Source: an uncultured Bacillaceae bacterium (GTDB lineage: Bacteria; Bacillota; Bacilli; Bacillales; DSM-1321). From it: a stretch of DNA of 64,000 nt. The stretch's first letter is position 1. Each line of letters starts with the position of its first letter. Of this stretch, positions 3,242 through 57,365 are shown piece after piece. The notes beneath the pieces were generated by a model. The model saw nothing but the letters and a program-made list of their open reading frames with translations. It made no database searches and was not told the origin of the DNA. The stretch is from contig CAVWEP010000002.1 in assembly GCA_963754185.1 (NCBI GenBank), forward strand, positions 830,192 through 894,191, read 5' to 3'. The position numbers and the translations under genes are program-made.

Positions 3242-3397
3242 TTGAAGCGAAAAGCAAATGTCGATGGAGCAGTAAAGGCAAGTAAAACACCGAAACGCAA
3301 TCAAGCAGAAAATGAATTTGCTAATGAATTTGCAGCTGGAGAAAATGTAATGAAGGGCGCTAATCGAAATTCGAAAAAAGGACGTCAAGGAAATTAA
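3242..3397 (+). CDS. Unannotated 51-aa basic hydrophilic small protein
   Basis: AGGAGGTG RBS, TTG start, MKRKANVDGAVKASKTPKRNQAENEFANEFAAGENVMKGANRNSKKGRQGN*, then a terminator. Too short for the ORF track. Confidence 0.75.
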   Translation: MKRKANVDGAVKASKTPKRNQAENEFANEFAAGENVMKGANRNSKKGRQGN

Positions 3398-3432
3398 AAA
3401 AAGCGGAAGGCCCCAGTGCCTTCCGCTTTTCT
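3398..3432. terminator. Bidirectional intrinsic terminator between the small ORF and trmB
   Basis: AAAAAGCGGAAGGC-cccagt-GCCTTCCGCTTTT hairpin flanked by A and T runs. Confidence 0.85.
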
Positions 3433-4073
3433 CATGATTGGAATCTAGCTTCTAATCGATAAATTCGATTGCCTTGGCTTGAAAATTTCTCTTCGTATTC
3501 TGTCATAATATTTCCTTCAAAGTCACTGTTATGCAAGTCCAGACTGACATAAGTAAGAAGCATGCCATACTCCGAAATACTCATTAATGATGACTCAAAC
3601 AACCCTTGGTTATCCGTTTTAAAATGTACTTCGCCATGTTTTGGTAAAACATCTTCATACGTGCTAAGAAATGTTTTATAGGTTAAACGACGTTTGGCAT
3701 GCCGTTTTTTCGGCCATGGATCAGAAAAGTTCAAATATACACGATCCACTTCACCTTTTTCAAAATAATCTCGTAAATGAGCAGCATTAACATTCATTAG
3801 TTTTAAATTTGGTAAATCATTTTCAATTAACAAATCAAGCGCTACGACAATTACACTGTTAAATAACTCAATACCAATAAAGTTCACATCTGGATGGGCT
3901 TTAGCCATTTCAGTAATAAAACGACCTTTCCCTGTCCCTACTTCAATATATAGTGGATTATTATTTCCAAATACTTCTTCCCATTTTCCTTTGTGGCTTT
4001 CTGGTTGCCCAATCACATATTGTGGAAATTCTTTAAGGCGCTCTTCAGCCCAAGGTTTATGTCTTAAACGCAT
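3432..4073 (-). CDS. trmB: tRNA (guanine-N7)-methyltransferase
   Basis: MRLRHKPW start; [24 protein letters not shown] and FKTDN motifs. Confidence 0.97.
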
Positions 4074-6589: not shown

Positions 6590-7144
6590 CTATTGTAATT
6601 TTATCGAAAAAATTGGTTCATACGACGGCGCTGCCCCAATATGTGTTTGATACATTGTAATGTGAGATGCCAGAAAACTCTTCTGTTTGAATGCTACAAA
6701 ATCAGCAGCTTTTTCAAAGGAAAAGTCGGACTCACCTATATATTTTCTAGCCATTGTAATATGAGGCTTAAACGGCTTAGGATCTAGCGTAAATCCTGCA
6801 TCTAGACAAGCTTGATATACTTTAGCTTGTACCTTAAAAAGTCTTTGCTGGAATGCCACACCTGCCCATAGTATGCGCGGTTGCTCCATTCTTCCAAAAA
6901 CACCTATTGTATCAAGAGATAGCTCGAATGCCGTTTCATTCTCCAGCGCTGTTTGAACCAATTTTACGGCTTTTTTTCGCATTGCTTCGGAAGCATCTCC
7001 TAAAAAAGCCATTGTAATATGATAATCGGCAGGATGTAGCCATTTCTTAAATGGAAAGGCAAATTTTAATTTTTCTATCCCAGCATGAAGTTCTTCTTTA
7101 ATTTCATCTGGCAACGTTAAAGCAAAGAAAAAATGAGTATTCAT
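6590..7144 (-). CDS. ytlP: 2H phosphoesterase / RNA 2',3'-cyclic phosphodiesterase
   Basis: Two HxT motifs (YHITMAF, PHITMAR). Confidence 0.9.
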
Positions 7145-7333
7145 TCATAAGCGCTTCCTTTCTACCTGTTCTATTTTAACATATATAGACAAATATCATA
7201 GGCGTTTTCACCCATTAGATATTGAATGGTACATCTATTCTTAGCTTAAACAAAAATGTTTATTTAGAAACTTTTTTGTACGTTAATCTAAAAGAACCCT
7301 CTGCCTAGTGACAGAAGATTCTTTTGATTAACC

Positions 7334-8185
7334 TTAAAGTTTACCGCATTGTCTTTCGATTTCTTCACGGAAAAGAGTTTGCAACTTCCTTGTGATAGAA
7401 CCAACTTCACCATTCGCAATGACCTTTCCATCAATTTTCAAAATTGGCGTCAATTCCACAGTAGTACTTGTATAAAATACTTCGTCTGCGGCAAGCATTT
7501 CTTCCACTGTAAAAGCTTCTTCTACGTAGGGAATACCATTTGCTTTACATAGCTGAAGCACTACTTGACGAGTTATACCATTTAAAATGAAATGATTTGC
7601 AGGATGAGTTTTCAACGTTCCACCAACAACGATGGCTACATTAGATGAACTACCTTCTGTCACTGTACCATTGCGATGCTGTATTGCTCCACTGCAACCT
7701 GCCTCAATCGCTTGCTGCTTAGCAAGAATATTACCAAGTAAATTTAAGCTTTTAATATTACAGCGTAACCACCTTACATCTTCAGTAGTGATGGCATTAG
7801 TACCAGGCTTCTCTTCACCGGCATAAGGCAATTCTTTCGTATAGGCGACGAGCACTGGATCTACTTCTTCAGTGGGAAAAGCATGATTGCGTATCGATAC
7901 CCCTCTCGTTAATTGCATATAAACGGTGCCGAATTTCAATTGATCTTTAGCAATAAGTTCTTCAACTTTAGCCTGTAGTTTTTTCACGGTAAAAGGCGTT
8001 TTGATTGCCAGTAACCTTGTGCTTTCTACCAATCGATTGAAATGCATCTCAGCCGTAAATAACTTACCATTATATACTCGAAACACTTCGTACACACCAT
8101 CACCAAATTGATAACCACGATCTTCTATATCAATATATATATCTGAACGATTCATAATTTCACCATTAAAAATGATGTTCCCCAT
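7334..8185 (-). CDS. dat: D-amino-acid aminotransferase
   Basis: EDRGYQFGDGVYEV, RWLRCNIKSLNLL (PLP lysine), EGSSSN and ILNGITR motifs. Confidence 0.93.
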   Translation of the reverse strand: MGNIIFNGEIMNRSDIYIDIEDRGYQFGDGVYEVFRVYNGKLFTAEMHFNRLVESTRLLAIKTPFTVKKLQAKVEELIAKDQLKFGTVYMQLTRGVSIRNHAFPTEEVDPVLVAYTKELPYAGEEKPGTNAITTEDVRWLRCNIKSLNLLGNILAKQQAIEAGCSGAIQHRNGTVTEGSSSNVAIVVGGTLKTHPANHFILNGITRQVVLQLCKANGIPYVEEAFTVEEMLAADEVFYTSTTVELTPILKIDGKVIANGEVGSITRKLQTLFREEIERQCGKL

Positions 8186-8275
8186 TTTCTTCCCTCCCTG
8201 CCATTTCAACAAACTGAATTGGATTTCTCTTTATCTCGATTTAAATAACTATCAGCGGTGGATGGAAGGTTCACT

Positions 8276-9686
8276 TTATCTAGCCAATTCATAAATCGCC
8301 TGTGCATAAATCGCAGCGGCCTTTAACAGATCCTCAATCTCCATATATTCATCTTTTTGATGGGCAATATCTTCTCTGCCTGGGAATAGTGGTCCAAATG
8401 CAACCCCTTCCTTCAACGAACGAGCATATGTGCCACCACCGATTGACAGCAATTCTGCTTTTTCACCTGTTGCTTCCTCATACACTTTTTGTAAGGTTTG
8501 AATTAAGAAGCTGTCCTTATCAACATGGTGAGGTGCAGAATTGGAGAAAGACTCTAATTGTAGCTGTAACTTCGCTACATTCGCTGTTAATGTTTCTTTC
8601 CCCTGCTCCCAATCATATGTAACAGGGTAGCGCATCGTAAATCCAACGCTGCTATCTGCTGGTTTAGCATAACGAAGCTTACCAGCATTTAAAGTTAACT
8701 CACCTGTAATCTCATCTTGATACGCTACACCTAATTTATTCCCTCGTGAATCCCCAAATAAATAATCACGAATGAATGTAAAGTATGTAGTTGCATGAGA
8801 GTCTAAATCCAAATCGGCTAAAAATGAACCCAAATAAAGTCCAGCATTGACTCCATTATTCGGCTCCATTCCGTGGGCAGATACCCCTTCAAGCTCCAAA
8901 ATAACCATCGTATGTGAGATTTCCGCTTTTCCTGTTAGCGAATGTTTTTGTAAAAATTGCTCATACGCCTCCGTTACTTCCGCTGCTTTTTCTGTTTCCA
9001 CTTTTGCTACCGCGTAATCAGGTACCATATTCATTCGACGCCCTGAAGAAAATTCCACCACATTCACCGCTGCCTGCTCAACTTGATTCTGCAGGAGCTT
9101 GAACAATTGCAAAATCCCAAATTCCTTTTTCGGCATTAATAATAGGAAAATCAGCATCGGGAGCAAAGCCTACTGTCGGCATTTCCTCTACTTCAAAATA
9201 ATGATTCACACAACGCCAATTTGATTCCTCGTCGGTTCCAATAATCATCCGCACGCGTTTATTGAGGGAGAGGCCTAACTCTTTGATTACCTTCATTGCA
9301 TAATAAGCAGCCATTGTTGGACCTTTATCGTCAATGGCTCCACGTGCGAAGATTTTTCCATCACGGATTTCGGCACCATATGGGTCTGAACTCCAGCCAT
9401 CTCCTTCCGGTACAACGTCAACATGACATAAAATGCCAAGCAATTCTTCGCCTTCCCCCATCTCAATATGCCCAGCTACATGATCTACATTTTTCACCGT
9501 AAAACCATCTTTTTCCCCTAAATTTAGCATATACTCTAATGCTTCCTTGACTCCAACGCCAAATGGAGCGGTATCTGTTTGATTTTCCTCATCAAGCACA
9601 CTTTTAATTTTCAATAAACTTTGTGTATCGGCAAGTAAATCTTGTTTACGATTTTCTATTTCCAATTGCCAATTGATTTTATTCAA
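8276..9686 (-). CDS. pepV: Dipeptidase PepV (M20), frameshifted near 9080-9165
   Basis: CHVDVVP, RGAIDDKGP, GTDEES, GGGTYAR and AHQKDEY motifs, split over two frames. Confidence 0.92.
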
Positions 9687-9808
9687 AGGTCTACACTCCT
9701 CACTTATATTCGCTTCTATTTTAGTTTAGCACAGCCTTTTAACCAATCCAAAAACTGCTCCCTTTTGTAAAGGCTATCCTATTACTTGCATAACGAACAT
9801 AAAATCAT

Positions 9809-9906
9809 GCATTAGAAAAACACGACTTATCGCCCCAATGGCGAAAGTCGATGTCGCATCTTTACTATCGTCCATTAGATATAAATTCTGATAGTATAAA
9901 AAAACA
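9809..9906. repeat. Dispersed two-hairpin intergenic repeat, copy 1
   Basis: Identical to 57515-57613 except for an 8-9 nt linker between the hairpins. Confidence 0.9.
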
Positions 9907-9928
9907 CTTCACCATAATGAAGTGTTTT
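9901..9928 (-). terminator. Intrinsic terminator of the signal peptidase gene
   Basis: AAAACACTTCA-ccataa-TGAAGTGTTTT hairpin with an adjoining A run (U tail on the minus strand). Confidence 0.8.
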
Positions 9929-9933
9929 CGAGC

Positions 9934-10482
9934 CTATTTTACAAATTTAATTTCATTTACTGGCCAGTATACAAAGTTTGCTTTTCCGACGATTTCTTCA
10001 ACAGGAATCGTACCAATTTCGCGGCTATCTAAACTATTTTGACGATTATCGCCCATTAAGAATAATTGGTTATCAGGAACTGTAGCGCTACCCGTTACCT
10101 CTTCAAGCGTAAAATCTCCGGTCAATGGCGCTCCACCCATCTCAGCCTTATACTCTTCTAAATAAGGTTCATCATATTTTTTCCCGTTAATATATAACGT
10201 ATCATTTTTGTATTCAATATGATCCCCAGGCAAACCAATTACACGTTTAATATAATCTCTTTCCTCCGTTGCATGAAAAACAACTACATCAAATCGGTCG
10301 ATACTATCAATATCCGTACCAAACTTATTTAAAATAATTCGCTCATGGTCCAACAAAGTCGGCATCATTGATTCGCCATCAACAACAATTGGCGTAAAAA
10401 TATATGTACGAATTAAGAAAGCCAAAATAACAGCAATAATAATTGCTTTCACCCACGAAAAAAATTCTTTAGATTTCTCCAA
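9934..10482 (-). CDS. lepB: Signal peptidase I (SipS/LepB family)
   Basis: GESMMPTL (catalytic Ser), YIKRVIGLPGD (Lys) and GDNRQNSLDSR motifs; single N-terminal TM helix. Confidence 0.95.
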   Translation of the reverse strand: MEKSKEFFSWVKAIIIAVILAFLIRTYIFTPIVVDGESMMPTLLDHERIILNKFGTDIDSIDRFDVVVFHATEERDYIKRVIGLPGDHIEYKNDTLYINGKKYDEPYLEEYKAEMGGAPLTGDFTLEEVTGSATVPDNQLFLMGDNRQNSLDSREIGTIPVEEIVGKANFVYWPVNEIKFVK

Positions 10483-10568
10483 GCCCTGTCCCTCTCTCTT
10501 CTTAAATTTCTTTAGTCATTATATCATATTTGTATACACTCAGTGATACTATGAATCATAAAGAAAAC

Positions 10569-10950
10569 GTGAATACTCCCCCACTTAAATTCTAACAAAT
10601 TTTGAAGCGAGGGCTTCTTTCCTGTTTCTACCTTCATTGCTCATTGTGACGTCACAAAAAGTCTTACAAAAAGTCCACAGGCGTATTTTTTATACTGGTT
10701 CGGAAAAGACCAATCCTACCAGTTTCCGTTTTTATTTAAACAGGGATAAACATTTGCTCGAGCCCTTTGTTTTTAATGTTGATAACGCTTTTCGACTCCA
10801 AATTGAGGAAATGTAATAGAGTGATAATCCTTTTATTTTTTAAGTTTCGGAAAACGATTTTGACCTTTAAAAAAGCGTTTATACGCATCCATCGGATAGA
10901 TGGCGGTTTTCTCGACTGAAATGATAAAAAGTTTATTCATCATCCTCGAC
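10569..10950 (-). mobile_element. Internally deleted IS200/IS605 element: tnpB fragment plus right end/omegaRNA scaffold
   Basis: 10803-10889 reads DAYKRFFKGQNRFPKLKK*KDYHSITFPQ, a TnpB-type motif with an in-frame stop. It is followed by GCCTGTGGA...GTAAGAC...GAAACAGGAAAGAAGCCCTCGCTTCAA...AAGTGGGGGAGTATTCAC, a typical right end. Left boundary uncertain. Confidence 0.8.
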
Positions 10951-10957
10951 TGTTTGA

Positions 10958-11264
10958 TCAACTTGATAATTGATCGATGGCAATGAACAGTAAAATTGCC
11001 ATCACATGCAAAAAGGCAGTAATTCCATAAATAGATGCTTCAAAAGTCTGGTACATACAGTGCTAGAGGTAATAGAATCCACGTTTCAATCCCTAAAGCT
11101 ATAACAATGGTTCCGATTCGTTTCGCTAACAATCGTTCATTTGTAGGGTAATAAAACTCACTATAACCAGCCACAAACGAAACTTCTTGTTTTTTCCAAA
11201 TACGCATCCCTGTCCCTATTAAAAATACACCTACTAAAAAAATAAAGAGTAATTTAAGTTCCAT
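10958..11264 (-). CDS. Small membrane protein (DUF3784-like), frameshifted at ~11040
   Basis: IWKKQ...VAGY N-terminus. Removing one T from the TTTT run extends the frame into a third helix EASIYGITAFLHVMAILLFIAIDQLSS*. Confidence 0.7.
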
Positions 11265-11356
11265 CCCCCAAAACTCCCTTTTTATTCCATTTTACCTTTC
11301 GGACGCAAAAAAAGCGAATTTCTTTTCACTTGAAATTCGCTTTTCCACTATTAGCT

Positions 11357-12058
11357 TTACATATTACAAGAACCATCCGTACAGTTATCAGCTTTTTCAG
11401 ACTCATTGACCATTTGTAGAGAATTCTCCTCAGTCCACACTTTTTGTAGGGTTTGTAAAAATACTTCTGTTGGTTGCGCTCCTGAAATGCCGTATTTACG
11501 ATCAATTACAAAAAACGGAACACCCCTCACACCGAGTAAGCTACCTTCTTGTTCGTCCGTTCTTACCTCAGCATTGTAAAGATTGCTCTCTAACATATCC
11601 TCTGTTTCCTTTTTATCCAACCCAACTTCTTCAGCCAATGTCACAAGTGTTTTACGGTCACCCAAATGCTTTGTTTCTGTGAAATGGGCATAAAACAGAC
11701 GCTCATTCATTTCTTTTCCCTTGCCCTTTGCTTCGGCAAATTGCGTTAAACGATGCGCATCAAACGTATTGGTTAAAATCGTTTTATCTAAATAATAGTC
11801 AAGACCTTCCGCTTTCGCCTGAGCCGTAAGATTATCATTTGAAGCCTTTACTTGTTCTGCACTCATATTATATTTTTTCATTAGCATTTCATCTTGACTC
11901 ATTTTAATATCCCGTTCAGCATCCGGCTGTAGTTCAAAGCTCTTAAATTCAACCTCCACTTGATTCCCTTGTGTAAACTGATTTAATGCTTTCTCCAACC
12001 GACGCTTTCCAATATAACAAAATGGGCATTGGTAATCTGACCAAATCTCAACCTTCAT
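11357..12058 (-). CDS. DsbA/FrnE-family dithiol oxidoreductase
   Basis: MKVEIWSDYQCPFCYIG, NTFDAHRL, GVPFF and ISGAQP motifs; C-terminal CTDGSC. Confidence 0.93.
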   Translation of the reverse strand: MKVEIWSDYQCPFCYIGKRRLEKALNQFTQGNQVEVEFKSFELQPDAERDIKMSQDEMLMKKYNMSAEQVKASNDNLTAQAKAEGLDYYLDKTILTNTFDAHRLTQFAEAKGKGKEMNERLFYAHFTETKHLGDRKTLVTLAEEVGLDKKETEDMLESNLYNAEVRTDEQEGSLLGVRGVPFFVIDRKYGISGAQPTEVFLQTLQKVWTEENSLQMVNESEKADNCTDGSCNM

Positions 12059-12437
12059 AAAAAACGCTCTCCTCTACTTACAAAATAACCTGCTAGTAAC
12101 ATCATAACGATAGGTATATTTAAAAACAAATAATTGATTTCACGGATAAAATAATGTCCATCTTACTTTTTTTAAAATTATGTATTAAATATAGGAGAAA
12201 GTCGCATATAATATTTGTAAAAAAGGCGAACACAAGTTTAATATTTCGATAATTTCCACTTTTCAGTAGAAATTATCGAAATATAGAGGTAAAATATGAC
12301 TAAGACATCTAAGGTTGACTTTGAGGAGTTATAGGGTGGGTTCTAGCAAGTACATAGTGACAGCAAATAGCTGTCCGACATATCGATTGTTTTCATTTGT
12401 TCACTAAAACTAATGAAAAATAATAAGGAGTGGTTTT

Positions 12438-12659
12438 TTGAAACCTTCAACAAATCGCATGTTAACCCGTATTAAATCCGTTTATATGTTTATCAATGAT
12501 AACGGTACGGTTTCTACTCAAGAGATTGTAGAAGAATTTGGCATCACTCCTCGCACAGTACAGCGCGATTTAAATGTCTTAGCTTATAATGACCTCGTTC
12601 AAAGCCCAAGCCGTGGATACTGGACAACAACAAACAAAAAAGTAAAGATGTCATCCTAA
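12438..12659 (+). CDS. ytzE: Small DeoR-HTH regulator
   Basis: MKPSTNRMLTRIKSVY...ITPRTVQRDLNVL; TTG start after AAGGAGTGG. Confidence 0.92.
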   Translation: MKPSTNRMLTRIKSVYMFINDNGTVSTQEIVEEFGITPRTVQRDLNVLAYNDLVQSPSRGYWTTTNKKVKMSS

Positions 12660-12754
12660 GTATAAAAAGATCCACCCAAAAATCGATGTGTTATCATATG
12701 GACTGAGGCCGGTACATCCGTCGCCTCATTTTTTTGCCCATACTCGAATTCAGC

Positions 12755-13470
12755 TTAATTCTCTTGCTTCAGAGCTTCCAATTCTTCATCCGTTAATTCA
12801 CGATACTCTCCAAGTTCAAGATCTTCATCCAACTGTAAACTTCCCATCGACAATCGCTTTAAATAAATGACTCGTTTATCAACAGCCTCAAACATCCGCT
12901 TCACTTGATGAAACTTTCCTTCTGTAATGGTTAATCTCAATATCTGATGTGGGCCCTGATTTTAGAATTACAAGCTCCCCAGGCTTTGTTACATAACCAT
13001 CATCCAACGTAACTCCCGCACGAAAAGCCTCAATATCACGCTCGGTTACTTCTCCTTCAATAACAGCAAAATACGTCTTCGGTACATGCTTTTTCGGCGA
13101 TAGCAATTGATGCGCTAGCTTTCCATCATTCGTAATCAGCAGCAATCCTTCCGTATCTTTATCCAAACGCCCTACTGGAAATGGTTCATATACTGAATCT
13201 TCCAGCTGTAGTAAATCAATGACCGTTTCTTGATAATTGTCTTCTGTGGCAGACAGGACACCTGGTGGCTTATTCATCATTAAGTACACGAATTCTTTAT
13301 ATTCGACTTGTTCCCCATGTACAGTCACTGTATCTGCAGTCAGGATCAACCTGTTGCTTCGCATCCTTAATCAGTTCTTCATTTACCTTCACTGCGCCTG
13401 ATTTCAGCAAACCCTTTACTTCTTTCCTGCTTCCATACCCAATATTAGCAAGTAACTTATCAATTCTCAT
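12755..13470 (-). CDS. rsuA: 16S rRNA pseudouridine synthase RsuA-like, two frameshifts
   Basis: MRIDKLL S4 domain, GRLDKDTEGLLL (catalytic Asp) and EGKFHQVKRMF motifs, spread over three frames. Confidence 0.9.
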
Positions 13471-29087: not shown

Positions 29088-29177
29088 TCTCTTCTTCTCC
29101 CTCCTCCCTAAGAAAAATAGAAAATAAAAAAACCACTCTCCTAACAGGAAAGTGGTTTGGTTTTGTATGCAAAGAAT

Positions 29178-29223: not shown

Positions 29224-29249
29224 ATTCCTTTAACGAATACAAAAAACGC

Positions 29250-29348
29250 CGCACACTTCCCTACGCAGGTTCGAACCTGTTCAGGTTTTGAGGGTTTAAA
29301 AGTAGCTACTTTATTCTCAGCCCTTATCAAGGGATCCCCTAGTGAATA
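29250..29348 (-). promoter_or_regulatory. TPP riboswitch (thi-box), with terminator at ~29140-29165
   Basis: CTAGGGG...GGGCTGAGA...ACCC...CTGAACAGGTTCGAACCTGCGTAGGGAAG upstream of thiamine genes; terminator AAACCACTTTCCT...AGGAGAGTGGTTTTTT. Confidence 0.95.
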
Positions 29349-29427
29349 TATTTAATTTTTCAACATCCACATTCAAAATAACATGAAAATTTAGTAAATT
29401 CAAGTTTAATTTCCGAAAATTTTCATA

Positions 29428-38903: not shown

Positions 38904-39150
38904 TAAAAAACCCCTCATCCCAAATAGGGACGAGAGGATTATGTATATCTTCCCGCGGTACCACCCACATTGGCAACTTACATAACGTTGCCCAGCTCAG
39001 ACATCCGTAACGTGGACTAGCACGCCAGGTGTTACTTGATTTCACACCTGAAACTCAAAAGGCGAGTTCACAATCAATCCAGGTTGACTTGCACCATCCG
39101 TCAACTCTCTACACTGGCTCTAATTGCTACTACTCCTCATCATAGTCTTT
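38904..39150 (-). promoter_or_regulatory. T-box riboswitch, Leu (CUC specifier)
   Basis: T-box AATGTGGGTGGTACCGCG at 38954-38971; specifier GAA-CTC-GCC (CUC at 39064-39066); terminator at ~38904-38945. Confidence 0.95.
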
Positions 39151-39662
39151 ATAAAAGTATTTTAATCTACTTTATTCTAGTAAATTTTTTCAACAATTGC
39201 AATAGCTACTCGCAAAAACATTATAACCATGTTTTTGATTATATATGCATTTACATGGATTTTTGTGCTGGAGAATGGATGAATGTTGTTCAGCTTCTTC
39301 ATTGGCTATACAAGCCAGATTAGCTATGTACTCAGTATCATTATCGCTTTAATCGAAATAGTCCCTCCATCATCGAAAAAGTAAAGCGAGCGGTGGCAAA
39401 TATTTCGTAAAATTTAGGGTATCGTAACAATAAATTATAGTAAACAGCTTTGTTACCCAGCTTCATAAAAAATTCACTTTATACACTCCCCTAAATTAGT
39501 TATAATTAAAAATTGGATTTATTACATATAAAGTCATCTATTTTATGGATTGATTTAACTTCTATACCAAAAGGTAACGTGAACATGGCTAAACTTATTA
39601 GACTAAATATTAAGTTTGCTTGCTCTATTCCTTGTTAAAAAAAGAAAGAAGGACATTATTCT

Positions 39663-53349: not shown

Positions 53350-53515
53350 CTCTTATCGTTCAAGGGTTCTTTACCTTGCTCAGGTTAGCACCAACACCAC
53401 AATTCCTTGAAAAAATGACTGGCTTTATTTTCGACCTTCATTTTCAATTCAAGTTCAAATATGGCAGGTTGCTGGGTTTCATCGGGCCTGTCCCTCCACC
53501 AACTCAGGATAAGAG
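53350..53515 (-). promoter_or_regulatory. SAM-I riboswitch with long P3; terminator at ~53300-53330
   Basis: CTCTTATC...GAG...GGAGGGACAGGCCCGATGAAACCCAGCAACC...GGTGCTAA...GATAAGAG. Confidence 0.95.
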
Positions 53516-55801: not shown

Positions 55802-55955
55802 ATGAACCTCCCCCCACCTATCGCGTTCGCGCTTGAGGAGGGGGTTTCTTGTTGTAAGGAATAACCTAGAAGAAACGAAGCGGATGCTTCTAGGTGTACA
55901 CGACACCCTCAACCGTAGTTCTCCTCTAACAAAGTGTATTGTTTAATACACTACT
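55802..55955 (-). mobile_element. Orphan IS200/IS605 right end / TnpB omegaRNA-like scaffold
   Basis: GAACTACGGTTG...CCTAGAAG...CTTCTAGG...CAAGAAACCCCCTCCTCAAGCGCGAACGCGATAGGTGGGGGGAGGTTCAT. Confidence 0.7.
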
Positions 55956-55967
55956 TATTTCACCACT

Positions 55968-57365
55968 TTAAACATCAATTAAAAATAAATAAATTGGTAA
56001 AATAATAATTAAAACTAGGCTGTATACATAATTCACTTTAATTAAGTCAAACACCCTTCTCTTTAATAGTGAAGAAAGTAAACTATTGACAGCCGTCGCT
56101 GGCGAAATCAGATTTGAAATACTCCATCCCGTAAGTAGCAGTATCCCTAAAAATAAGGGTGTTATCCCGACACTAGCTGGGTCTACTGTTGTAGCTAAAA
56201 TCGTTATAAGAATGATCGGATGTGAGCCTATCATTGATGTTAATACGATAAGCAACAAGGTACAAATGGTAAAGGCAATTGGTAGTGGTATTGGCAATGT
56301 AGAAACCAAAGATGGAATCCATTCTCCCAAATCCGTCTGACTCACAGCTCCACTAAAAAAACCAGCTGTTAGAAATAGGACAATTTCTTTTTTTAAAGCC
56401 GGAATACTTTTAGTCACATGGTCTTTTACACCTTGCTTATAGAAGGAAAAAGAACGACTGATTAAGCACCAGAGCATCGGATAGAATATGGCCGTCAGAG
56501 AAATAATAAGGACCATTGACATAGCAACCAATTTCTCCAAAGCTAGAATAAAAGCCATGGCCAAAAGTAAATACCCTACAAGAGGTAGTAATTTCTTAAA
56601 AGAATTCACTTCGTCCTGCTCATGTATTTCTTCATCTTCTTCGAACGCTGCTGCCTCCTCCCTAATTTCGTTATAACGTAAATGCGGAAAATCAATCAAT
56701 ATGCTTACAAAAACGGAAATGACATAAAACCCTATTAAATAGGGCAAAAGCTCTATCCAATTTACATGCAATGAATTTGTAACGACTGCCATCGCTGCAA
56801 AATAAGGTGACCATAAAATAGCAGATGCAAATCCTCGGTTTAATGCATTATTTAAAATTCTCCAAGATCGTGAACTGCGATGAATAGACGCTAAATGGTG
56901 GACAACTGAAACAGATCCAACATTTAAAAACACAGCTAAAATAGTCATTAAAAATTGAGTTATAATAAAAAAGGGCATACTTCCTTTTATTGAGGTACGA
57001 TAGAATTTCTTTAATGCTGAAACATAAACAGGTAATCGGACAGGAATTCCGAACATTGGTGCAAACACAAATAAAGTAACCAGCGTAACATTTAATGTAG
57101 CAGCTTGTTGCCAGCCAGAAAAGGACACTTTTTGATAGAGCATCAATGCCATTCCTAATACGAGAAAGCAGATTGATAGAACTTGGACTGTTCCCCGGAT
57201 TTTCGGTAAACTAACAAGAATAATTACGAGAACCAAAAGACTAAGCACTGAGCGTAACCAAATAAAACCTGTTAATTGCTGCACTACAAACCCGAATGCT
57301 AAACCTAAAATAAGAAATTTATCTAAATAAAATGAGCATACATTCAATACTTGTTTTCTTTTCAT
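55968..57365 (-). CDS. Polytopic membrane protein (~12 TM), possible ion-transporter-superfamily permease
   Basis: 465-aa hydrophobic ORF with a central acidic loop; no motif I can name securely. Confidence 0.75.
   Translation of the reverse strand: MKRKQVLNVCSFYLDKFLILGLAFGFVVQQLTGFIWLRSVLSLLVLVIILVSLPKIRGTVQVLSICFLVLGMALMLYQKVSFSGWQQAATLNVTLVTLFVFAPMFGIPVRLPVYVSALKKFYRTSIKGSMPFFIITQFLMTILAVFLNVGSVSVVHHLASIHRSSRSWRILNNALNRGFASAILWSPYFAAMAVVTNSLHVNWIELLPYLIGFYVISVFVSILIDFPHLRYNEIREEAAAFEEDEEIHEQDEVNSFKKLLPLVGYLLLAMAFILALEKLVAMSMVLIISLTAIFYPMLWCLISRSFSFYKQGVKDHVTKSIPALKKEIVLFLTAGFFSGAVSQTDLGEWIPSLVSTLPIPLPIAFTICTLLLIVLTSMIGSHPIILITILATTVDPASVGITPLFLGILLLTGWSISNLISPATAVNSLLSSLLKRRVFDLIKVNYVYSLVLIIILPIYLFLIDV

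What the first reader, a model, noticed from the sequence alone, without database searches (positions are those of the whole stretch)
10569..10950. Decayed tnpB element that retains its omegaRNA scaffold
Between the DUF3784-like gene and the signal peptidase gene, the minus strand carries a 29-codon TnpB-type fragment with an in-frame stop. About 120 nt later come the motifs typical of IS200/IS605 right ends and TnpB omegaRNAs, ending TTCAC. Most of tnpB is deleted, but the ~120-nt scaffold looks coherent. If transcribed, its guide would be the flank (GTTTTCTTTATGATTCATAG...), which is the signal peptidase promoter region, and a TnpB or TldR protein encoded elsewhere could use it in trans.
Basis: partly seen in the sequence, partly recalled or inferred. 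Interest (0 to 1): 0.72.

Follow-up and report, generated by a model that had tools for sequence, protein, structure and literature searches.

The report
Gutted TnpB transposon with intact guide-RNA scaffold
A 355-base leftover of a TnpB-type insertion sequence sits just upstream of the signal peptidase promoter; it has lost almost all of its nuclease gene but keeps a complete guide-RNA scaffold, which is a common and most likely inert kind of transposon debris.

Summary
Window 10569-10923 (minus strand) is a lineage-specific 355-nt insert. Three related genomes carry the same DUF3784-like/sipS gene pair with a short spacer and an empty site, TTTAT|GTGTTCTTTATG.

The insert is collinear with intact TnpB-only IS200/IS605 elements such as B. 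mycoides plasmid p162. It holds:
- a ~20-nt left-end tip;
- tnpB codons ~85-117, with an in-frame TAA;
- the last ~19 codons plus the stop;
- a full 164-nt omegaRNA scaffold ending TTCAC.

A covariance model built from 57 scaffolds of other genomes hits it at 70.7 bits (E 1e-15, full length). It keeps 34 of 36 invariant columns, and the two changed columns are one flipped base pair. 19 of 21 consensus pairs are standard.

The trans-acting or TldR-like idea is not supported. The guide is simply the flank, as in every such element. The matching DNA is preceded by the transposon's own TTCAC, not the family's TTTAA/TTTAT motif. No tnpB or tldR lies in the 64 kb, no close parent was found, and no RNA data exist.

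About 45% of family scaffolds in other genomes also lack an intact tnpB. Protein-less derivatives that carry omegaRNAs are already described. This is an ordinary relic of low interest.

The parts
10924..10928 (-). TTTAT: flanking target motif (TAM-like) immediately 5' of the insert; not part of the element
   Evidence: The empty site in L119 reads ...ATATTTTTTAT|GTGTTCTTTATG. The window reads ...AAACTTTTTAT|CATTTCAG...TTCAC|GTTTTCTTTATG. Intact family copies sit 3' of TTTAA. TTTAT is the TAM of ISGst2 TnpB2 (PMC10055086).
10569..10923 (-). Whole 355-nt insert: remnant of a TnpB-only IS200/IS605-family element
   Evidence: Absent from the orthologous DUF3784-like/sipS spacer in L119, L120 and L137. 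Homology with these relatives breaks exactly at 10568/10569. Identical in the sister assemblies L015-L023.
10904..10923 (-). Probable left-end tip (CATTTCAGTCGAGAAAACCG); the left-end hairpin is not recognisable after it
   Evidence: Resembles the first ~20 nt of the L118 and L202-type left ends (CGAACTTCAGCCAGAATTC / CATATTTCCAAAAGAATTC). The following hairpin, CCATC-TATCC-GATGG, does not resemble the right-end hairpin, unlike in intact copies (by eye).
10788..10886 (-). tnpB 5' fragment (about codons 85-117 of a 382-aa TnpB) with an in-frame TAA at 10833-10835
   Evidence: tblastn with L118 TnpB: E 2.7e-5 against the whole window, 55% identity. NCBIfam IS200_TnpB E 0.014. Plasmid tblastn: most listed hits lie in genes annotated as TnpB.
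10736..10807 (-). tnpB 3' fragment (last ~19 codons, ..LNLESKSVINIKNKGLEQMFIPV, stop TAA 10736-10738); the internal deletion junction is near 10800
   Evidence: Collinear DNA alignment with L118 3335-3400. Weak protein match to aa 358-376, LDRDHNAAINIEKAGLTQI. About 740 nt, including the RuvC and zinc-finger parts, are missing.
10569..10732 (-). omegaRNA scaffold (right end), complete
   Evidence: R1 covariance model: 70.7 bits, E 1.3e-15, positions 1-142 of 142. 34 of 36 invariant columns kept and 19 of 21 consensus pairs standard. The MFE fold reproduces the family helices, z = -2.35.
10661..10685 (-). Conserved scaffold core TACGCCTGTGGA-N5-TGTAAGAC
   Evidence: The same motif has more than 120 exact matches across Bacillota, Chloroflexota, Halomonas and others in genome contigs. 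30 of 70 unique TTCAC-ending copies directly follow an ORF of at least 300 aa.
10578..10613 (-). Terminal hairpin CCCTCGCTT / AAGTGGGGG (9 pairs, 2 of them G-U), followed by AGTATTCAC, the element end
   Evidence: Matches the right ends of TnpB elements on Bacillus and Alkalihalophilus plasmids. The pairs covary across the family.
10553..10568 (-). Would-be 16-nt guide (GTTTTCTTTATGATTC): simply the right flank
   Evidence: Only perfect match in the window. The near-matches at 29174 and 63511 are not preceded by TTTAA/TTTAT. The DNA 5' of the match is TTCAC, not a TAM (sequence).
10518..10526 (-). Predicted extended -10 box (TGATATAAT) of the signal peptidase promoter, 45 nt downstream of the insert end
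   Evidence: Read from the sequence. TGnTATAAT is conserved in L119, L120 and L137. The consensus scan did not call it because the -35 is poor. Inferred, not shown.

Best explanation
This is the in-situ wreck of a TnpB-only (IS1341-type) IS200/IS605-family insertion sequence.

A full element of about 1.4-1.5 kb inserted 3' of a TTTAT, about 45 nt upstream of the signal peptidase -10 box. This happened in this lineage only. Two internal deletions then removed:
- the left-end hairpin plus the first ~84 codons;
- codons ~118-363, which hold the RuvC nuclease and zinc-finger parts.

What remains is a left-end tip, two short tnpB fragments (one with a stop codon), and the whole right end. The right end is the omegaRNA scaffold.

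The scaffold looks intact because it lies almost entirely downstream of the tnpB stop, so the deletions missed it, and because too little time has passed for point mutations to break it. Its divergence from known relatives is largely compensatory, so that divergence arose while the parent element was still active.

The remnant can neither move (no left-end hairpin, no TnpA) nor cut (no TnpB). The 'guide' is the flank by construction. Its own locus is not a legitimate target because TTCAC stands where the TAM should be.

Most likely it has no function. At most it is carried on read-through transcripts from the upstream DUF3784-like gene.

Shown: identity, anatomy, insertion site, structural integrity. 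Inferred: order of events, lack of function.
For: - Empty site in three relatives, with the homology break exactly at the TTCAC end.
- Collinearity with the intact element L118, whose TnpB carries Pfam OrfB_IS605, Cas12f1-like_TNB and HTH_OrfB_IS605 domains.
- TnpB fragment: E 2.7e-5 against the window, E 3e-5 against plasmids, NCBIfam IS200_TnpB.
- Scaffold: 70.7 bits, E 1.3e-15, full length. 34 of 36 invariant columns are kept, and the two changed ones (62 A>T, 111 T>A) pair with each other. 19 of 21 pairs are standard.
- The family structure has 11 of 21 pairs with compensatory changes.
- The family's left ends sit 3' of TTTAA, and the window's left tip resembles them.
- No intact tnpB in the 64 kb.
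- 34 of 76 family scaffolds elsewhere lack an ORF of at least 330 aa, so such wrecks are common.
- A second solo right-end-like stretch lies in the same window.
- No extra sequence conservation: the zero differences in the remnant are part of a 3.5-kb low-divergence block.
Against: - Expression could not be tested: no RNA run holds the region.
- The rest of the source genome could not be scanned for a cognate TnpB.
- There is no terminator-like site between the DUF3784-like gene and the scaffold on the minus strand, so the scaffold may well be transcribed.
- The exact TTTAT-adjacent left edge plus a hairpin 18 nt inside could also be read as a surviving left end.
- The near-perfect scaffold, next to a tnpB fragment that already carries a stop, is what selection on the RNA would also produce.
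Confidence: 0.8

Rival explanations
1. Orphan but working omegaRNA. The scaffold is transcribed, for example by read-through from the DUF3784-like gene, and loaded by a TnpB encoded elsewhere in the genome. The complex would cut TTTAT-flanked empty alleles, keeping the remnant in the population. Alternatively it would act as a decoy for that TnpB.
For: - The scaffold is structurally complete.
- No minus-strand terminator lies upstream of it.
- The literature already proposes that protein-less derivatives with omegaRNAs are served in trans by TnpB (PMC10055086).
- The empty site in L119 has TTTAT followed by the target with one mismatch.
Against: - No tnpB in the 64 kb.
- No close relative of the TnpB fragment among 5.8 billion proteins.
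- No copy of this scaffold subtype in JGI metagenomes.
- No RNA evidence.
- No conservation beyond the surrounding low-divergence block.
- The closest known scaffolds are only ~70% identical, so a compatible protein is not assured.
Confidence: 0.1
2. A mobile miniature element (PATE-like). The 355-nt unit, already lacking tnpB, was inserted as such by a TnpA acting in trans.
For: - The left edge lies exactly 3' of TTTAT, with an LE-like tip.
- A 5-8-bp hairpin (10888-10905) starts 18 nt inside the left edge, the position of left-end hairpins in intact copies.
- PATE-like IS200/IS605 derivatives are known (PMC10055086).
Against: - That hairpin does not resemble the element's own right-end hairpin, whereas the LE and RE hairpins of intact family copies resemble each other (by eye).
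- There is a single copy in the window.
- The junction-specific 31-mer and the subtype core are absent from JGI metagenomes.
- Soil-metagenome contigs show it only in this context.
- It still carries two out-of-frame tnpB fragments, as expected of random deletions.
Confidence: 0.08
3. TldR-like, RNA-guided or otherwise cis-regulatory control of the signal peptidase promoter by the remnant.
For: The remnant ends 45 nt upstream of the predicted -10 box, and the would-be guide covers about -57 to -42 of the promoter (sequence).
Against: - TldRs work with adjacently encoded guide RNAs on targets flanked by a TAM (PMC10705468).
- Here there is no adjacent TnpB-like gene.
- The target is preceded by TTCAC, not TTTAA/TTTAT.
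- The guide is the unmodified insertion flank, which is also present in relatives without the element.
Confidence: 0.02

Closest known systems
TnpB-only IS200/IS605-family elements (IS1341 type). The copy compared here is on Bacillus mycoides plasmid p162 (NZ_CP036135.1, L118 2093-3564, TnpB WP_002130461.1). Characterised relatives are ISGst2 of Geobacillus stearothermophilus (TAM TTTAT; PMC10055086) and ISDra2 (own knowledge).
   Same: Insertion 3' of a TTTAA/TTTAT motif; a left-end tip; a TnpB coding frame; an omegaRNA scaffold after the stop with the same helices and the core TACGCCTGTGGA-N5-TGTAAGAC; the end TTCAC; the guide equal to the right flank.
   Different: About 1.1 kb is missing: the left-end hairpin, codons 1-84 and codons ~118-363. 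A stop codon sits in the surviving fragment. The scaffold is only ~70% identical to the nearest copies. The element cannot cut or move.
PATEs (palindrome-associated transposable elements): protein-less IS200/IS605 derivatives that often encode omegaRNAs (PMC10055086)
   Same: Small, with no protein, carrying an omegaRNA that could only be used by a TnpB supplied in trans.
   Different: PATEs keep both TnpA-recognised ends and occur in several copies. Here the left-end hairpin is not recognisable, there is one copy, and tnpB coding debris is still present.
TldR (TnpB-like nuclease-dead repressor) guide-RNA systems (PMC10705468)
   Same: A TnpB-type scaffold whose guide would pair with promoter-proximal DNA. 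Relatives of the oppF-type TldRs use the same TTTAA/TTTAT motifs.
   Different: No TldR gene next to it, no TAM at the matching DNA, and a guide that is just the insertion flank. Nothing indicates domestication.

Membership tests
IS200/IS605-family TnpB element (as a remnant) | Sequence similarity to TnpB protein | tested here: met
   aa 85-115 of an intact TnpB match 10886-10794 (E 2.7e-5). NCBIfam IS200_TnpB E 0.014. In a tblastn against plasmids most listed hits lie in annotated TnpB genes, best E 3e-5.
IS200/IS605-family TnpB element (as a remnant) | Right end with an omegaRNA scaffold of a family that follows intact tnpB genes | tested here: met
   R1, built from 57 scaffolds of other genomes, scores 70.7 bits, E 1.3e-15, full length. 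42 of 76 family copies follow an ORF of at least 330 aa.
IS200/IS605-family TnpB element (as a remnant) | Insertion 3' of a short target motif without target duplication, with an empty site in relatives | tested here: met
   The L119 empty site is TTTAT|GTGTTC; the window has TTTAT|insert|GTTTTC. The family's left flank is TTTAA.
IS200/IS605-family TnpB element (functional, mobile) | Left-end subterminal hairpin resembling the right-end hairpin | tested here: not met
   Only a ~20-nt left tip is recognisable. The hairpin at 10888-10905 is unlike the right-end hairpin. This was a comparison by eye, so it is of moderate strength.
IS200/IS605-family TnpB element (functional, mobile) | Intact TnpB with RuvC and zinc-finger domains | tested here: not met
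   Only ~33 plus ~19 codons remain, with an in-frame stop. The OrfB_IS605 and TNB regions of L118 (aa 188-368) have almost no counterpart; only the last few codons (about aa 358-368) survive in the 3' fragment.
Functional omegaRNA | Stable transcript with a defined 3' end 16-20 nt into the flank | not testable with these tools
   No RNA run holds the region; only soil and air DNA metagenomes do.
Functional omegaRNA | Cognate TnpB encoded in the same genome | tested here: inconclusive
   None in the 64-kb window. There is no close parent in the protein collection or in JGI metagenomes.
TldR-type RNA-guided repressor system | Nuclease-dead TnpB homologue encoded next to the guide RNA | tested here: not met
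   The neighbours are a DUF3784-like gene and a signal peptidase gene; no TnpB-like ORF is present.
TldR-type RNA-guided repressor system | Guide complementary to a promoter target flanked by the cognate TAM | tested here: not met
   The only perfect match is the element's own flank, preceded by TTCAC. The near-matches lack TTTAA/TTTAT.
PATE / miniature IS200/IS605 derivative | Several copies in different contexts | tested here: not met
   One copy in the window. No match to the junction 31-mer or to the subtype core in JGI metagenomes. Metagenome contigs show only this context.

The most novel reading that the evidence does not exclude
The scaffold is a living orphan guide RNA. It would be transcribed by read-through from the DUF3784-like gene and loaded by a TnpB (or a nuclease-dead relative) encoded elsewhere in this uncultured Bacillaceae genome. 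Either the complex cuts TTTAT-flanked empty alleles, so that a dead transposon is still maintained by homing, or it titrates the protein.
Probability: 0.07. Interest if true: 0.55.

Novelty: new member of a known kind. Interest (0 to 1): 0.18.

Why it matters
It matters little for biology. Decayed TnpB elements are abundant, and here 45% of the scaffolds of this one family already lack an intact tnpB. The idea that protein-less derivatives carry omegaRNAs served in trans is already in the literature (PMC10055086).

The useful by-products are three:
- a clean example with a defined empty site, which fixes the element's edges and its TTTAT target;
- a covariance model for a widespread omegaRNA family (core TACGCCTGTGGA-N5-TGTAAGAC, found from Bacillota to Chloroflexota and Halomonas) that matched no Rfam 15 family;
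- a caution for annotation: a guide that 'targets' a neighbouring promoter is the default for any IS200/IS605 right end and is not evidence of regulation.

Tried and rejected
- **Rfam.** Gathering threshold on the whole window and E up to 10 on 10400-11100 gave no relevant family, only chance hits.
- **Pfam on the 42-aa ORF.** Nothing.
- **tblastn with large (~480 aa) TnpBs.** These share only the terminal 18-mer with the window. There was no similarity, so that family is not the parent. R1 does not hit their loci.
- **The search for homologous proteins with the read-through fragment.** No candidate.
- **Two metagenome scans.** The deletion-junction 31-mer and the subtype-specific core both gave zero matches.
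- **RNA runs.** None.
- **Laying soil-metagenome contigs on the region.** Low depth, no excision joints and no alternative contexts. One contig joins the terminal hairpin to a different (B. cereus-type) right end, so it comes from another element in another organism.
- **Conservation as a sign of selection.** Rejected: the zero differences in the remnant belong to a 3.5-kb block at 0.2% divergence.
- **Shared 'TATCATTTC' at the left edge and inside L118 tnpB.** Rejected as chance, because register and frame differ.
- **Other guide targets in the window.** Only matches with 2-3 mismatches, without a TAM.

Full report
**Setting.** On the minus strand, a DUF3784-like gene is followed by a 476-nt spacer and then a type I signal peptidase gene.
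- The DUF3784-like gene starts at 11264 and ends near 10959. It is 101 aa in the sister assemblies. The window has one extra A at 11049 that breaks the frame. Its Pfam DUF3784 match is weak: E 0.0011, 19.6 bits, below the family cut-off.
- The signal peptidase gene is 9934-10482 (Peptidase_S26, E 4.5e-62).
- The organism is an uncultured soil Bacillaceae close to Peribacillus. The best genome match is MAG MFD05674.bin.4.38 (SipS 98% identical), then MFD07841.bin.3.76 (89%) and Peribacillus species (~80%).

**The insert and its edges.** The three relatives that share the DUF3784-like/sipS gene pair (L119, L120, and L137 = P. asahii) have a short spacer.
- Homology with the window runs to about 10945-10964 on one side and resumes at 10568 (L119), 10537 (L120) or 10556 (L137) on the other.
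- The alignment with L119 shows the empty site ...GAGGATTATGAATATATTTTTTAT|GTGTTCTTTATGATTCATAG.
- The window reads ...GAGGATGATGAATAAACTTTTTAT|CATTTCAGTCGAG...AGTATTCAC|GTTTTCTTTATGATTCATAG.
- The insert is therefore window 10569-10923, 355 nt. It lies 3' of TTTAT and has no target duplication. This is the signature of IS200/IS605 insertion.
- It is present and identical in all nine sister metagenome contigs.

**What the insert is made of.** The terminal 50 nt match the right ends of TnpB elements on Bacillus and Alkalihalophilus plasmids. In pBpOF4-01 the match lies 110 nt after a tnpB stop.

The key comparison is with an intact 382-aa TnpB element on B. mycoides plasmid p162 (L118). That TnpB carries the Pfam domains HTH_OrfB_IS605, OrfB_IS605 and Cas12f1-like_TNB.
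- Window 10851-10798 aligns with L118 2536-2589, inside tnpB.
- Window ~10800-10569 aligns with L118 ~3335-3564, which covers the last codons, the stop, and 165 nt up to GTTCAC.
- At the protein level, L118 aa 85-115 match 10886-10794 (55% identity, E 2.7e-5 against the whole window), through a TAA at 10835-10833. This is the only TnpB-like stretch in the 64 kb.
- A tblastn against all plasmids returns mostly TnpB genes; the two best hits (E 3e-5, 2e-4) lie in decayed or unannotated tnpB loci.
- The last ~19 codons (..INIKNKGLEQMFIPV*) also survive, in another frame.
- The first ~20 nt of the insert (CATTTCAGTCGAGAAAAC) resemble the left-end tips of intact family copies. Those tips all sit 3' of TTTAA. 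The left-end hairpin that follows in those copies, which resembles their right-end hairpin, is not recognisable here.

The anatomy is therefore: left tip, a deletion, codons ~85-117, a deletion of ~740 nt, the last ~19 codons plus stop, and a complete right end.

**The scaffold.** The core TACGCCTGTGGA-N5-TGTAAGAC (10685-10661) has more than 120 exact matches in representative genomes of Bacillota, Chloroflexota, Halomonas and others. 30 of 70 unique TTCAC-ending copies directly follow an ORF of at least 300 aa.
- An alignment of 57 such scaffolds, without the window, gives a consensus of 21 pairs. Eleven of them have compensatory changes.
- The covariance model built from that alignment finds window 10569-10732 at 70.7 bits, E 1.3e-15, over the whole model.
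- For comparison, an untrained copy next to a decayed tnpB in B. pseudomycoides scores 92.6 bits. A neighbouring right-end family scores 35-51 bits.
- The window keeps 34 of 36 invariant columns. The two that differ (62 A>T and 111 T>A) are the two sides of one pair.
- 19 of 21 consensus pairs are standard. Most of helix P2 is rebuilt with different bases than in L118.
- The thermodynamic fold of the single sequence reproduces the same helices. It adds a 5' stem (CUGGU/ACCAG) that is one pair longer than CUGU/ACAG in its Bacillus relatives (z = -2.35).
- Rfam 15 has no matching family.

The scaffold is thus intact. Its divergence (~70% identity to the nearest copies) is of the kind that accumulates under structural constraint, that is, in the active parent.

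**Does it do anything?** The would-be guide (10568-10553, GTTTTCTTTATGATTC) is simply the right flank. The same bases, with one difference, are present in relatives that lack the element.
- The predicted signal peptidase promoter is an extended -10 box, TGATATAAT at 10526-10518. It is conserved in the relatives. The element landed 45 nt upstream of it and left it untouched (inferred, because the consensus scan does not call it).
- TnpB and TldR need their motif 5' of the target. Published values are TTTAT for ISGst2 TnpB2, with strong sensitivity to changes, and TTTAA/TTTAT for relatives of the oppF-type TldRs (PMC10055086; PMC10705468).
- At this locus the matching DNA is preceded by the element's own TTCAC. 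The locus is therefore immune by design.
- The proper target would be an empty allele, which is the ordinary homing role.
- No other TAM-flanked match exists in the window.
- No tnpB or tldR is in the 64 kb. No close relative of the fragment is in the protein collection. This scaffold subtype and the deletion junction are absent from JGI metagenomes.
- Only DNA metagenomes hold the region, so transcription cannot be judged.
- No minus-strand terminator-like site separates the DUF3784-like gene from the scaffold. Read-through transcription is therefore possible, but it is not evidence of use.
- There is no conservation signal. The absence of differences in the remnant is part of a 3.5-kb block at 0.2% divergence that begins at the insert.

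**Context.** Among 76 family scaffolds with enough upstream sequence, 34 (45%) lack an ORF of at least 330 aa. The closest TnpB-fragment matches (L116, L117) are themselves wrecks. The same window holds a second solo right-end-like stretch. Protein-less IS200/IS605 derivatives with omegaRNAs that would depend on TnpB in trans are already described (PMC10055086).

**Verdict.** The 'decayed element with retained scaffold' reading is right. The regulatory or trans-guide reading fails the tests that could be run and otherwise remains untested. This is a new member of a known kind, of low interest.

Noticed in passing
window 55802-55952 (-): A second solo right-end/omegaRNA-like stretch lies directly after the stop of a 465-aa membrane-protein gene (55968-57365, -). 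R1 scores it 16.9 bits, E 0.021. Its terminal hairpin (ACCCCCTCC...GGTGGGGGGAGGTTCAT) is 84% identical to the 49 nt just downstream of a 492-aa 'transposase' on B. pseudomycoides plasmid NZ_CP064267.1.
   Followed up: partly
window 11049; 8276-9686; 12755-13364: The window carries indels that split genes which are intact in the sister assemblies: the DUF3784-like gene (extra A at 11049), an M20 peptidase (202 + 296 aa here, 469 aa in L016) and a pseudouridine synthase (158 + 61 aa here, 237 aa in L016). These are either long-read assembly errors or real pseudogenes.
   Followed up: partly
window 6934-13369 versus L016: Divergence from the sister assembly changes at the insert. There are 35 differences in 10963-13369 (1.5%), 8 in 6934-10483 (0.2%), and none in 10484-10962. 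This suggests a recombination boundary near the left edge of the insert.
   Followed up: no
L199-L318 (genome-contig loci): The scaffold core TACGCCTGTGGA-N5-TGTAAGAC defines an omegaRNA family spread over Bacillota, Chloroflexota (Ktedonospora), Halomonas/Vreelandella and Desulfocucumaceae. Subfamilies differ in their 3' ends (TTCAC versus GGAGGATGT or GGATAACGG). The window's copy matched no Rfam 15 family.
   Followed up: partly
L001, L002, L005, L007-L009, L013, L014: A neighbouring right-end family in the B. cereus group and Paenibacillus shares the terminal hairpin. In the loci fetched it occurs mostly without an adjacent long ORF (solo copies). R1 scores these copies 35-51 bits.
   Followed up: no
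window 10549-10557 (-) and L119, L120, L137: The block ATTCATAGT, 26 nt upstream of the sipS -10 box, is invariant in all four genomes although the surrounding spacer is not. It may be a regulator binding site. The insert landed just upstream of it.
   Followed up: no
window 38923-39152 (-), 29241-29350 (-), 53350-53515 (-): A T-box leader, a TPP riboswitch and a SAM riboswitch all score above the Rfam gathering thresholds.
   Followed up: no
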